DNA of 44,021 bases from Escherichia phage BEK2-2. The stretch is taken from the sequence record MN158213.1. One strand, written 5' to 3'. Shown here one piece after another: positions 23,997-28,885 of this stretch (positions within the stretch are counted from its first letter, which is position 1; the number at the start of each line of letters is the position of its first letter). Below the pieces are notes generated by a model, which did not search any database, was not told where the DNA came from, and worked only from the letters and a program-made list of their open reading frames with translations. Both the position numbers and the translations under genes were made by a program.

Positions 23997-24032
23997 TCCT
24001 CTAAAAAGAGGCCCGCTAATCTGCGGGCCGGA
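23997..24032 (-). terminator. Intrinsic terminator or attenuator after the first leftward early gene
   Basis: On the - strand, hairpin ggcccgcagattagcgggcc followed by TCTTTTT. Confidence 0.5.
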
Positions 24033-24037
24033 ATATA

Positions 24038-24553
24038 TTAATCTTCCAGTTCGAAATAGGTTTCGACGATTTCTTTTAGCTCTTTGTGGAAGTCTTCGAC
24101 GTCGTCATCTTCCAGCTTGGCGATTGATTTGATCTCGAACGATTCCAGCAGGTCGTCGAATTCGTCGTTCGCGTCGTCGTCATCACCACCGGCAATAATA
24201 GCGGCATATTGTTTGATTTCGTCGCGCATCTCCGCCAGCGGATCGGCATCTTTCTTGCCTTTGCCTTTCGCCGGGGCTTTTTTAGATTTAGCCGGTTTTT
24301 CGTCTTCGGCATCATCGTCGTCGTCGTCATCTTCTACGACTTCTTTTTTGGCCTTACCCTTCGCCGGTGCTTTTTTAGCTTTAGCCGGTTTTTCGTCTTC
24401 GTCGTCGTCATCTTCGACAACTTCTTTTTTGGCCTTAGACGGCTTCTTGTCTTCCTGTTTACCAACGGCAGCGCCAACGGTTTCATAATGCTTTGCAATG
24501 GTTTCCAGTGCTACTACGCCGCGAGTGATCAGGTTTACGATTTGCTCAAACAT
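24038..24553 (-). CDS. Highly acidic Lys/Asp/Glu repeat protein, first gene of the leftward early operon (candidate DNA mimic)
   Basis: Start placed at MFEQIVN with GGAGA site (ORF track extends to 24733); two KKEVVEDDDD(E/D)DEKPAK(A/S)KKAPAKGK repeats from a tandem DNA repeat about 24230-24440. Confidence 0.6.
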   Translation of the reverse strand: MFEQIVNLITRGVVALETIAKHYETVGAAVGKQEDKKPSKAKKEVVEDDDDEDEKPAKAKKAPAKGKAKKEVVEDDDDDDDAEDEKPAKSKKAPAKGKGKKDADPLAEMRDEIKQYAAIIAGGDDDDANDEFDDLLESFEIKSIAKLEDDDVEDFHKELKEIVETYFELED

Positions 24554-24895
24554 GGTATATCTCCGATTGGTTAAGTTTAGGTGTCGGCAGTTAACTTCGT
24601 CGGTGGCCTTAACATATTGCCAGGTTACGCGTTCTCCCGTTCGGGTAGTGGACCTGGTTATATAATCACGGTTGGGAATCCTGACACTTCGATCCGGCCC
24701 CTGCGTTGCCCCTCTCCAGTTTGCGTCCTGCATCCTGTCGACGGAGTGAATGATAGATTGGTTGCAGGATGGGTGTCAACAACTAATTTCAAAAAAAAAG
24801 CGCCGAGGCAAAATGCGACGGCGCTAACCAATAAGAGACAATGAGACGGGAATTATTATTACACGCGTGCGCGCCCGTTTCAATATCCAAAGGAT

Positions 24896-24955: not shown

Positions 24956-25285
24956 ATGAATATCAAAGAAGCAATTGAAGTGTTATCTAATGCAATCCGC
25001 GGCGAAGCGGGTAAATCCTGGTATTACACAAATGCGGTGGATACTCTGTTATTTGAAGTGTCCAGATTATCGCGTGCTGAGAAGGAGCTTACCGCGAAGC
25101 TGGAATTGCTCAACGGCACGGCAGCAAGCAAGCTGCAAAAACACAATGAAGAAATGGAAGAATACAAAAAGCAGGTTATCCGTTTACGCAATGAGGGAAA
25201 GTCATGGGCAATGATCGCCGAGTTGACCGGAATTAATCAGAGCACAGTGCGCTCCTGGGTACGCAATAATAAAACTTCAAAGTAA
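24956..25285 (+). CDS. Putative HTH transcriptional regulator
   Basis: C-terminal helix-turn-helix-like segment SWAMIAELTGINQSTVRSWVRNN; first gene of the rightward early operon. Confidence 0.55.
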   Translation: MNIKEAIEVLSNAIRGEAGKSWYYTNAVDTLLFEVSRLSRAEKELTAKLELLNGTAASKLQKHNEEMEEYKKQVIRLRNEGKSWAMIAELTGINQSTVRSWVRNNKTSK

Positions 25286-28409: not shown

Positions 28410-28679
28410 ATGGACCGCAGACGAGCTAAACGGCTTTCCTGGAGCATTACCCTGCATTGCATACGAATATGGGCTAAGAATGCGAATGAGGGCGATTCTG
28501 TGTTCTGGAGCTATCGCGACGATGTGAAGCCATTAACGCAGACTCGCTACTTGCACCAGTTCGCCAGGGAGCATGGGTTAGCCATAAAAACGTCCTTGCA
28601 ACCAATTGGCGTTCGTATTACATTACGCCGGAAGCCTGCCGTTGAGCGGGTAGGCAAACACTGGAGACTGAGCAAATGA
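28410..28679 (+). CDS. Hypothetical basic early protein
   Basis: ATG with AAGGGG site; tightly packed in the operon. Confidence 0.5.
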   Translation: MDRRRAKRLSWSITLHCIRIWAKNANEGDSVFWSYRDDVKPLTQTRYLHQFAREHGLAIKTSLQPIGVRITLRRKPAVERVGKHWRLSK

Positions 28680-28885
28680 CACCAATGCAAAAAACACTAA
28701 TGGAGGGATTCTCGCAGGAGTTTATCGACCTGGAATCCTGCCACGACGACTACAAGCATTACGGCATCGCTACGGTATGCGACGGCGACAACCTTACCGC
28801 CGACGAGATCGACGAAAGCGAATGCAACCACGACCACCAGCAAGAAATCATCGTGTGCGACAAGTGCGGCACGGTTAAACTTTAA
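28676..28885 (+). CDS. Small acidic Cys-rich (zinc-ribbon-like) protein
   Basis: SCHDD...VCDG...ECNHD...VCDKCG; start overlaps the upstream stop. Confidence 0.5.
   Translation: MTPMQKTLMEGFSQEFIDLESCHDDYKHYGIATVCDGDNLTADEIDESECNHDHQQEIIVCDKCGTVKL

What the first reader, a model, noticed from the sequence alone, without database searches (positions are those of the whole stretch)
24038..24553. Extremely acidic repeat protein as first gene of the leftward early operon: candidate DNA mimic / anti-restriction protein
The about 171 aa product is dominated by Asp/Glu runs interspersed with Lys-rich KPAKAKKAPAKGK blocks, encoded by an imperfect tandem DNA repeat, and ends in a very acidic helical C-terminus. 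Being the first gene transcribed from the divergent early control region, it is positioned like known early DNA-mimic anti-restriction proteins such as Ocr and ArdA, which are also highly acidic. It could instead be a nucleoid-associated or scaffold-like protein. An in-frame upstream extension (to 24733) is Arg-rich and lacks a ribosome-binding site, so it is probably leader rather than coding.
Basis: inference. Interest (0 to 1): 0.55.

Follow-up and report, generated by a model that had tools for sequence, protein, structure and literature searches.

The report
Acidic tethered early protein, structured leader
The gene is real and encodes an uncharacterised core phage protein (anchor helix, floppy charged tether, small very acidic three-helix head) at the front of the replication/recombination operon. 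It shows no sign of being an Ocr- or ArdA-type anti-restriction protein, and its "leader" turns out to hold a conserved structured RNA that is not in Rfam.

Summary
Window 24038..24553(-) encodes a 171-aa protein with 31% Asp/Glu, net charge -23 and pI 4.4. It contains a 2 x 93-nt tandem repeat. It has its own ribosome-binding site, a near-consensus sigma-70 promoter and a terminator directly after it. The window is a Dhillonvirus-like coliphage.

The protein belongs to PHROG 3127, a narrow phage-only family of unknown function. It has three parts:
- a highly conserved N-terminal helix;
- a disordered, net-neutral, block-charged linker that ranges from 20 to 101 aa across the family;
- a conserved acidic three-helix bundle.

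In every locus examined the gene sits at or next to the front of the exonuclease / Gp2.5-like SSB / PolA operon, divergent from the helicase-primase.

Sequence profiles and fold searches gave no significant match to any solved structure, and neither Ocr nor ArdA appeared among the listed matches. The genome is purged of EcoKI, EcoAI and EcoDI sites, which argues against an effective type I restriction inhibitor. My best reading, held at low confidence, is an acidic decoy or adaptor for a DNA-binding recombination or replication protein. A Gam-like RecBCD inhibitor is the most testable version.

The upstream extension is non-coding. It is instead a ~160-nt structured RNA with strong covariation, shared with Drexlerviridae and other siphophages and without an Rfam match.

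The parts
24750..24779 (-). Sigma-70-type promoter TTGACA-18-TATCAT (11 of 12 matches) driving the leader and the acidic gene
   Evidence: The -35 box and spacing are conserved in all 16 Dhillonvirus loci aligned.
24581..24743 (-). Roughly 160-nt conserved structured RNA element that starts within a few nt of the predicted transcription start (5' leader of the acidic gene)
   Evidence: Covariance-model hit of 148.8 bits, E 1e-37. Covariation on alignment A5: 90.5% of cells paired, 14 pairs with changes on both sides, 0 of 500 shuffles as high, and slid controls at 0.087 or less against 0.305. No Rfam match. Replaced by about 14 nt in L007, L008, L009 and L016.
24561..24564 (-). Shine-Dalgarno GGAG, 7 nt before the ATG
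   Evidence: conserved in all loci.
24038..24553 (-). CDS of 171 aa, a PHROG 3127 family protein (function unknown)
   Evidence: (E 2e-53, full length).
24473..24550 (-). N-terminal helix, residues 2-27, the most conserved segment of the family (L8, R11, V13, V14, A15, E17, A20 invariant down to about 30% overall identity)
   Evidence: AF2 predicts a helix over residues 2-27 with block-mean pLDDT of 73 and 83 over residues 1-20.
24242..24472 (-). Disordered block-polyampholyte linker, residues 28-104 (KPAKAKKAPAKGK blocks alternating with Asp/Glu runs)
   Evidence: pLDDT below 50. Fraction of charged residues 0.65, net charge per residue -0.03, kappa 0.45. Length 20-101 aa and median net charge 0 across the family.
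24244..24426 (.). Imperfect tandem DNA repeat, two copies of about 90 nt, 93 nt apart, 80% identical, encoding the repeated linker unit
24053..24241 (-). C-terminal acidic three-helix bundle, residues 105-167 (net charge about -19)
   Evidence: AF2 helices 105-122, 126-138 and 149-167, with block-mean pLDDT 88-94 over residues 111-160. Conserved acidity. Tandemly duplicated in P0121, P0225, P0226, P0230 and P0241.
24003..24029 (-). Intrinsic terminator or attenuator directly after the stop codon (7 G-C pairs, then TCTTTTT)
   Evidence: A GC-rich hairpin follows the stop in most of the loci checked, including distant homologues.

Best explanation
The gene encodes a modular early protein that is a core part of the phage's replication/recombination module. 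It has an N-terminal anchor or oligomerisation helix, a flexible block-charged tether of variable length, and a small, strongly acidic three-helix head.

The most likely mode of action is stoichiometric protein binding, not catalysis or DNA binding. In this reading the acidic head acts as a nucleic-acid-like ligand that occupies the basic DNA or ssDNA-binding surface of a DNA-processing protein. The conserved N-helix would provide the second contact or the multimerisation.

The single version I commit to is a Gam/gp5.9-like role. The protein would be made first and in excess (own promoter, attenuator after the gene) and would block host RecBCD so that the phage exonuclease and Gp2.5-like annealing protein can act on linear phage DNA.

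What is shown: the gene, the architecture, the conservation pattern, the synteny and the expression signals. What is inferred: the binding mode and the target.
For: Architecture: a conserved N-helix, a disordered linker and a confidently predicted C-terminal three-helix bundle.

Conserved acidity: the head has a median net charge of -14 in 51 family representatives, while the linker is net neutral and varies 20-101 aa in length.

Autonomy of the head: it is an independent unit, tandemly duplicated in some members.

Synteny: in all loci examined, down to about 30% identity, the gene lies at or next to the head of an operon. That operon holds a DUF2800/PD-(D/E)XK exonuclease, a Gp2.5/Enc34-type SSB and annealing protein, PolA and an SNF2 helicase, and runs divergent from an HTH gene plus the helicase-primase. 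This parallels the lambda gam-bet-exo arrangement.

Expression signals: a strong promoter upstream and a terminator hairpin directly downstream fit a product needed in excess over the enzymes that follow. The hairpin is found after the stop in most relatives checked.

OLD sensitivity: according to the preprint 10.64898/2026.07.10.737580, P2 OLD is triggered by the RecBCD inhibitors Gam and gp5.9 and protects robustly against Dhillonvirus phages. The carefully annotated relative Bas84 lists no RecBCD inhibitor in the stretch of that record that I examined. The "Gam" label that some records put on the neighbouring 109-aa gene matches only HTH models.
Against: - The most conserved part is the hydrophobic N-helix, not the acidic head. 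That suggests a co-evolving, possibly phage-encoded, partner.
- Strict synteny and presence in 154 Dhillonvirus records look more like a core replication factor than a counter-defence gene.
- OLD can also be triggered in other ways (ssDNA hairpins at origins, per the same preprint), and the Dhillonvirus trigger was not mapped.
- Another small acidic ORF (28676..28885, net -12 in 69 aa) is an alternative candidate mimic.
- No experiment on this protein was found in the literature searches.
Confidence: 0.3

Rival explanations
1. Replisome or recombination adaptor. The protein would be a structural accessory of the phage's own machinery. The N-helix would dock on one phage protein (for example the helicase-primase or polymerase). 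The acidic three-helix head, like the C-terminal domains of single-strand annealing proteins, would dock on the exonuclease, the SSB or a basic patch of the polymerase. The tether would set the reach.
For: - Strict synteny with the helicase-primase, exonuclease, SSB and PolA across deep divergence, and universal presence in the genus.
- The conservation is highest in the N-helix.
Against: - All of these similarities are below significance.
- hhalign against full-length Red-beta found nothing.
- Three-helix bundles match many unrelated proteins.
- No interaction data exist.
Confidence: 0.28
2. The protein would be an Ocr/ArdA-like DNA mimic that blocks type I restriction-modification (and perhaps BREX) at the start of infection.
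For: - The protein is highly acidic and sits first in a sigma-70 operon.
- The acidity of the head is conserved.
- PMC11990801 notes that some Dhillonvirus isolates plate on many wild strains despite only moderate RM resistance.
Against: - No HMM, sequence or fold match to Ocr or ArdA.
- The folded acidic unit is far too small, as a monomer, to mimic the 20 or more bp that a type I enzyme grips.
- Type I sites are depleted: EcoKI 0 of 7.2 expected, EcoAI 0 of 3.8, EcoDI 0 of 6.6, EcoBI 1 of 4.1. BASEL Dhillonviruses carry 0-1 EcoKI sites. This indicates that site avoidance, rather than inhibition, is the strategy.
- Dhillonvirus phages are described as RM-sensitive compared with other groups (PMC8594841).
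- GGTAAG, which I recalled from memory as the E. coli BREX recognition motif, is not avoided (30 observed against 14.5 expected).
Confidence: 0.08
3. Nucleoid or condensate scaffold. The oligomerising N-helix together with a block-charged polyampholyte linker would drive self-association or DNA coating through the Lys-rich blocks. This would organise a replication compartment or remodel the host nucleoid.
For: - Linker kappa is 0.45 against 0.11 for shuffles, with a fraction of charged residues of 0.65.
- The KPAKAKKAPAKGK blocks resemble H1/AlgP-type DNA-binding repeats (my own knowledge).
- The mixed basic and acidic character of the linker is kept family-wide.
Against: - Natural variants with linkers of only about 20-27 aa exist in otherwise near-identical phages (P0097, P0082), so a long blocky linker is not essential.
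- The linker sequence is not conserved.
- There is no evidence of DNA binding.
Confidence: 0.1

Closest known systems
PHROG 3127 (phage protein family, function unknown), including Sodalis phage SO-1 gp46 and HK578/Dhillonvirus hypothetical proteins. Distant relatives are Edwardsiella phage eiAU Gp46 and the Salmonella phage MB78 '13.88 kDa late protein'.
   Same: Full-length profile match, E 2e-53. The window protein is 90-100% identical to proteins in 154 Dhillonvirus records. The architecture and synteny are the same.
   Different: Nothing differs: it is a member. The family itself has no assigned function.
Lambda Gam and T7 gp5.9 (RecBCD inhibitors, DNA mimics)
   Same: Both are small, acidic, helical early proteins encoded alongside a phage exonuclease and an annealing protein. 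Dhillonviruses, like lambda and T7, are sensitive to P2 OLD, which senses RecBCD inhibition (10.64898/2026.07.10.737580).
   Different: There is no sequence or structural similarity. The architecture differs (anchor helix, long tether, three-helix head). RecBCD inhibition has not been tested.
T7 Ocr (gp0.3) and ArdA (type I restriction inhibitors)
   Same: High negative charge and an early, promoter-proximal position.
   Different: There is no homology, and the fold is not an elongated DNA-shaped dimer. The genome shows type I site avoidance. The gene is a conserved core gene of a replication module.
C-terminal three-helix domains of single-strand annealing proteins (Red-beta C-terminal domain, PDB 6m9k; phage 80alpha Sak, PDB 8qe9)
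   Same: A three-helix bundle of about 60 residues in a recombination-gene context, with weak profile and fold similarity.
   Different: The similarity is not significant (hhalign probability 36%; nothing against Red-beta). Here the domain is a separate protein on a tether rather than the tail of an annealing protein, and it is far more acidic.
HK022 put RNAs (promoter-proximal cis-acting antiterminator RNAs): comparison for the leader RNA only
   Same: A structured RNA immediately downstream of an early promoter, upstream of an operon that contains an intrinsic terminator.
   Different: The element is about 160 nt and multi-helix, not two stem-loops. Phages that lack it keep the same terminator. 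It occurs upstream of unrelated genes in other phage groups. No antitermination test has been done.

Membership tests
PHROG 3127 (unknown function) | Full-length match to the family profile | tested here: met
   E 2.2e-53, residues 1-171 against profile positions 1-178 of 178.
Ocr (T7 gp0.3) | Sequence or profile similarity to Ocr | tested here: not met
   No Pfam hit. A profile search of all PDB chains up to E 10 returned 9 sequences, none of them an Ocr or other DNA-mimic chain.
Ocr (T7 gp0.3) | An elongated helical dimer whose surface carboxylates imitate about 24 bp of bent B-DNA | tested here: not met
Ocr (T7 gp0.3) | Inhibits type I restriction-modification or BREX | not testable with these tools
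   Indirect evidence against: depletion of EcoKI, EcoAI and EcoDI sites and reported RM sensitivity of the genus (PMC8594841, PMC11990801).
ArdA | Match to the ArdA profile or its three-domain elongated fold | tested here: not met
   no match.
Lambda Gam / T7 gp5.9 RecBCD inhibitors | Sequence or fold similarity | tested here: not met
   no match.
Lambda Gam / T7 gp5.9 RecBCD inhibitors | Encoded with the phage exonuclease and annealing protein, and expressed early | tested here: met
   The gene is first in an operon with a PD-(D/E)XK exonuclease (PHROG 69) and a Gp2.5-like SSB and annealing protein (PHROG 112), behind a sigma-70 promoter.
Lambda Gam / T7 gp5.9 RecBCD inhibitors | Binds and inhibits RecBCD | not testable with these tools
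   The only support is the OLD sensitivity of the genus reported in a preprint.
Annealing-protein C-terminal domain (Red-beta C-terminal domain, Sak C-terminus) | Detectable homology of the three-helix domain | tested here: inconclusive
Any Rfam family (for the leader RNA) | Covariance-model match | tested here: not met
   No hit within 24581..24743 at E up to 10.
HK022 put-type antiterminator RNA (for the leader RNA) | Presence linked to read-through of downstream terminators | tested here: not met
   Four Dhillonvirus loci without the element keep the same terminator after the acidic gene. No functional test was possible.

The most novel reading that the evidence does not exclude
There are two linked novelties. 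(a) The PHROG 3127 protein could be the founding member of a new class of tethered acidic decoys: an anchor helix, a tunable polyampholyte tether and a three-helix DNA-like head. Such a decoy would neutralise RecBCD or another host DNA-end or ssDNA sensor, and would be the unidentified trigger that makes Dhillonviruses sensitive to P2 OLD. (b) Its 5' leader is a previously undescribed, roughly 160-nt structured RNA class. It is promoter-proximal, and it is shared by Dhillonvirus, Drexlerviridae, Murrayvirus, Sortsnevirus and related virulent siphophages, upstream of unrelated genes. It could be a new phage riboregulator, for example a ligand- or protein-binding leader or a transcription-complex modifier. 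The existence of the conserved structure in (b) is already well supported, and only its function is open. The probability below refers to (a).
Probability: 0.2. Interest if true: 0.7.

Novelty: new variant of a known kind. Interest (0 to 1): 0.45.

Why it matters
Dhillonviruses are among the most commonly isolated coliphages and are used as models in defence-system work (SECphi4, SECphi6, SECphi18, BASEL Bas14-18 and Bas83-85). Even so, the first gene of their replication operon has no assigned function.

If the protein is a RecBCD-type decoy, that would explain why these phages trigger OLD. It would also add a structurally new, length-tunable inhibitor design. If it is a replisome adaptor, it would define a missing component of the widespread Enc34/Gp2.5-type replication module.

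Independently, the leader RNA is a clean, covariation-supported structured RNA without an Rfam match. It is confined to virulent siphophages and portable between unrelated genes, which makes it a directly testable candidate for a new kind of phage gene control.

Tried and rejected
- Upstream extension as coding sequence: rejected because of presence/absence, frame breaks and non-synonymous changes and because the PHROG profile starts at the short ATG.
[quoted passage not shown] The RAZR trigger in SECphi18 is the portal protein.
- Remote homology: an exhaustive profile search of 1.84 billion representative proteins found only 61 clusters, all the same small phage family and none fused to another domain apart from tandem copies of the C-domain. 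Pfam hits were only sub-threshold noise from low complexity (BUD22, DUF6669). NCBIfam gave nothing.
- Homology to annealing-protein C-terminal domains: this was followed up and stayed inconclusive. The last word-indexed search returned too few Sak homologues to build a profile.
- Leader RNA as a put-like antiterminator tied to the downstream terminator: no presence/absence correlation.
- Leader RNA as a known family: none in Rfam. Single-sequence folding gave no stability signal (z = +0.96), so only comparative analysis revealed the structure.
- Replication origin inside the repeat (by analogy with the origin inside lambda gene O): rejected, because the repeat region is the least conserved part and is lost in natural variants. 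The GC-skew minimum at 23-25 kb simply follows the switch in gene orientation.
- BASEL plating data as a test of type I anti-restriction: uninformative, because these phages carry 0-1 EcoKI sites.

Full report
**What the window is.** The 1.9 kb around the finding is 93-97% identical to Dhillonvirus coliphages such as Dru_SM5, JLBYU60, jat and the BASEL isolates. At 44 kb, the window is about the size of a Dhillonvirus genome. In the annotated relatives every copy of the gene is called a hypothetical protein.

**Checking the observation.**
- The ORF at 24038..24553(-) starts at an ATG 7 nt after GGAG and encodes 171 aa.
- It has 53 Asp/Glu and 30 Lys/Arg, net charge -23 and pI 4.44. By acidic fraction it is the most acidic of 145 ATG-ORFs of at least 60 aa in the window.
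- The repeated KPAKxKKAPAKGK(A/G)KK...EDDDD unit is encoded by two copies of about 90 nt, 93 nt apart and 80% identical, at 24244-24333 and 24337-24426.
- A TTGACA-18-TATCAT promoter lies at 24779..24750. A terminator with 7 G-C pairs lies at 24029..24010, directly after the stop codon.

**The upstream extension.** I aligned 16 Dhillonvirus loci from IMG/VR. The ~150 nt between the promoter and the ribosome-binding site are replaced by about 14 nt in four loci (L007, L008, L009, L016). The reading frame into the ATG is broken in L006 (-1 nt) and in L010 and L011 (+2 nt). The few substitutions are mostly non-synonymous in that frame. The PHROG 3127 profile also begins at the short start.

**Anatomy of the protein.** Homologues range from 115 to 180 aa, or up to about 230 aa where the head is duplicated. 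Alignments reaching down to about 30% identity show three parts.
- Residues 1-28 form a helix that is the most conserved segment. L8, R11, V13, V14, A15, E17 and A20 are invariant in alignment A3.
- The linker has no conserved sequence. Its length runs from 20 to 101 aa. Its median net charge is 0, but its fraction of charged residues is high.
- The C-terminal domain of about 65 residues is conserved and acidic, with a median net charge of -14. Some members carry it as two tandem copies (P0121, P0225, P0226, P0230, P0241).

AlphaFold2 with a 51-sequence alignment gave the following. The N-helix spans residues 2-27, with block-mean pLDDT of 73 and 83 over residues 1-20. Residues 28-104 are disordered, with pLDDT below 50. 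Three helices follow at 105-122, 126-138 and 149-167, with block-mean pLDDT of 88-94 over residues 111-160.

In the window protein the linker is net neutral but strongly block-segregated, with kappa 0.45 against 0.11 +/- 0.05 for shuffles. The "acidic repeat" is therefore a dispensable, tunable tether. The net acidity belongs to the folded head.

**Relatives and context.**
- An exhaustive profile search of 1.84 billion representative proteins found only 61 clusters. All were small proteins of the same architecture.
- A word-indexed search found 2,753 close variants, most of them on phage-sized contigs of about 40-45 kb.
- No library assigns a function: Pfam, NCBIfam, PHROGs, PDB sequences.
- BFVD returned family members only: eiAU Gp46, a St162 protein, and the MB78 "13.88 kDa late protein".

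In every locus examined the gene sits at or next to the head of one operon. That operon holds one or two small genes, a DUF2800/PD-(D/E)XK exonuclease, a Gp2.5/Enc34-type SSB and annealing protein, PolA and an SNF2 helicase. It runs divergent from an HTH gene plus the AAA_25 helicase-primase. A GC-rich hairpin follows the stop codon in most of the loci checked, including distant relatives. The gene is present in 154 Dhillonvirus records.

**Testing the anti-restriction reading.**
- Nothing links the protein to Ocr or ArdA by sequence or by fold.
- The folded acidic unit is about 60 residues, much smaller than the DNA-length surfaces of those mimics.
- The genome has 0 EcoKI, 0 EcoAI, 0 EcoDI and 1 EcoBI sites, against 7.2, 3.8, 6.6 and 4.1 expected from a first-order Markov model.
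- BASEL Dhillonviruses likewise carry 0-1 EcoKI sites.
- Such purging implies that type I enzymes still select on this DNA. That is not expected if an efficient inhibitor were made first.
- The BASEL papers describe the genus as moderately to considerably RM-sensitive (PMC8594841, PMC11990801).

I therefore rate the Ocr/ArdA-like function as unlikely, at about 0.08.

**What it more likely does.** The data fit a stoichiometric protein-binding factor of the replication/recombination module. Two versions are about equally likely.

(a) A Gam/gp5.9-like decoy for RecBCD. In its favour:
- the gene occupies the gam-like position ahead of the exonuclease and the annealing protein;
- it is set up for high expression;
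- its acidity is conserved;
- a 2026 preprint reports that P2 OLD, which is triggered by the RecBCD inhibitors Gam and gp5.9, protects robustly against Dhillonviruses, with no trigger identified (10.64898/2026.07.10.737580);
- no RecBCD inhibitor is annotated in the stretches of the related genomes that I examined, and the "Gam" label on the neighbouring 109-aa gene matches only HTH models.

(b) An adaptor within the phage's own machinery. In its favour:
- the synteny is strict, like that of a core gene;
- conservation peaks in the N-helix, which suggests a co-evolving partner;
- the head shows repeated but sub-threshold similarity to the C-terminal three-helix domains of annealing proteins.

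The similarity scores behind that last point are as follows.

| Comparison | Result |
|---|---|
| A4 profile against 80alpha Sak chain 8qe9 | E 0.12 |
| Foldseek against 8qe9 | rank 7, E 1.2 |
| hhalign, A4 against the 80alpha Sak C-terminus | probability 36% over 58 columns |
| hhalign, A4 against full-length Red-beta | negative |

I commit to (a) as the single most testable mechanism, at 0.30, with (b) at 0.28. Both remain inferences.

The segment 24581..24743(-) is almost invariant among Dhillonviruses and still shows compensatory changes. A CCAGG/CCTGG pair becomes CCTGG/CCAGG in L011 and CCCGG/CCGGG in L018.

- The same element occurs in several other phage groups: Drexlerviridae (PHB17, slyngel, JK16, KMI8), Murrayvirus Lumpael, Sortsnevirus sortkaff, Alux-21 and Serratia phage MQ-4. 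There it almost always lies in an intergenic gap of roughly 240 nt, in the orientation of the flanking genes. In most of them a -10-like box lies a few nt upstream.
- The downstream genes in these phages are unrelated to one another.
- It is absent from 5,426 complete E. coli genomes. Among the representative genomes of 185,579 species it was found once, on a 42.7-kb contig assigned to a metagenome-assembled genome.
- No Rfam model matches it.
- A covariance model built from 17 sequences scores all instances at 147-186 bits.
- On the resulting alignment 90.5% of cells are paired. Fourteen pairs change on both sides. None of 500 shuffles reaches the observed covariation score. Slid-partner controls reach at most 0.087, against 0.305 observed.
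- Two nested hairpins are 100% paired with 8 of 9 pairs covarying, and the closing helix covaries between phage groups.
- Many pairs alternate between G-C and G-U, which fits RNA on the transcribed strand rather than a DNA structure.
- Phages that lack the element keep the terminator after the acidic gene. A simple put-like antitermination role is therefore not supported, and the function is open.

**Verdict.** The Ocr/ArdA interpretation is disfavoured, and a broader "acidic decoy or adaptor" role remains plausible but unproven. The protein itself is an already-catalogued orphan family. The structured leader RNA is the more solid new result.

Noticed in passing
window 24581..24743 (-); also L032:2474-2638, L033:2489-2650, L034:2474-2636, L035:2489-2650, L056-L059 and L062-L076: A roughly 160-nt structured RNA lies right after the promoter, with strong covariation and no Rfam match. 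It is shared by Dhillonvirus, Drexlerviridae, Murrayvirus, Sortsnevirus and related virulent siphophages, upstream of unrelated genes. It is absent from E. coli genomes and nearly absent from 185,579 species genomes. Four Dhillonvirus loci replace it with a ~14-nt sequence that I read by eye as a small hairpin.
   Followed up: yes
window 24791..24883 (-): A second promoter-like site (TTGAAA-17-AATAAT with an upstream TG, 24883..24855) is followed about 30 nt later by a conserved hairpin and a run of nine T (GCGCCG...CGGCGC at 24824..24800, T-run 24799..24791). This ends just before the -35 box of the main promoter. It would yield a small RNA of about 58 nt, or act as an insulator. The stem shows two compensatory changes in L016 (TCCCCG...CGGGGA).
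   Followed up: partly
whole window: Type I restriction sites are strongly depleted: EcoKI 0 of 7.2 expected, EcoDI 0 of 6.6, EcoAI 0 of 3.8, EcoBI 1 of 4.1. In contrast, Dcm sites (CCWGG) are 2.3-fold over-represented (158 against 69 +/- 8), and GGTAAG and EcoRV sites are about 2-fold over-represented.
   Followed up: partly
window 28676..28885 (+): A 69-aa, Cys-rich, very acidic ORF (net -12; PHROG 15977, function unknown). It is an alternative candidate for a small DNA-mimic or decoy protein in this genome.
   Followed up: partly
window 24956..25285 (+): The divergent 109-aa gene is variously annotated in GenBank relatives as 'DNA recombination nuclease inhibitor gamma', 'transposase' or 'resolvase'. 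It matches only HTH and sigma-region-4-type models (HTH_23, Sigma70_r4_2), so it is most likely the early regulator, and the Gam label looks like an annotation error.
   Followed up: partly
window 24010..24029 (-) and the homologous loci: The loop of the terminator hairpin after the acidic gene occurs in two forms (CAGATTAG and CTAATCTG). The two hairpins are exact reverse complements of each other, so the hairpin has been inverted between otherwise near-identical phages.
   Followed up: no
L004 and L013, just after the acidic gene: In two Dhillonvirus loci the sequence right after the stop codon of the acidic gene is different from the terminator hairpin seen in the other loci. It begins with an ATG and may be an inserted small gene, but I did not call or check the ORF.
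   Followed up: no
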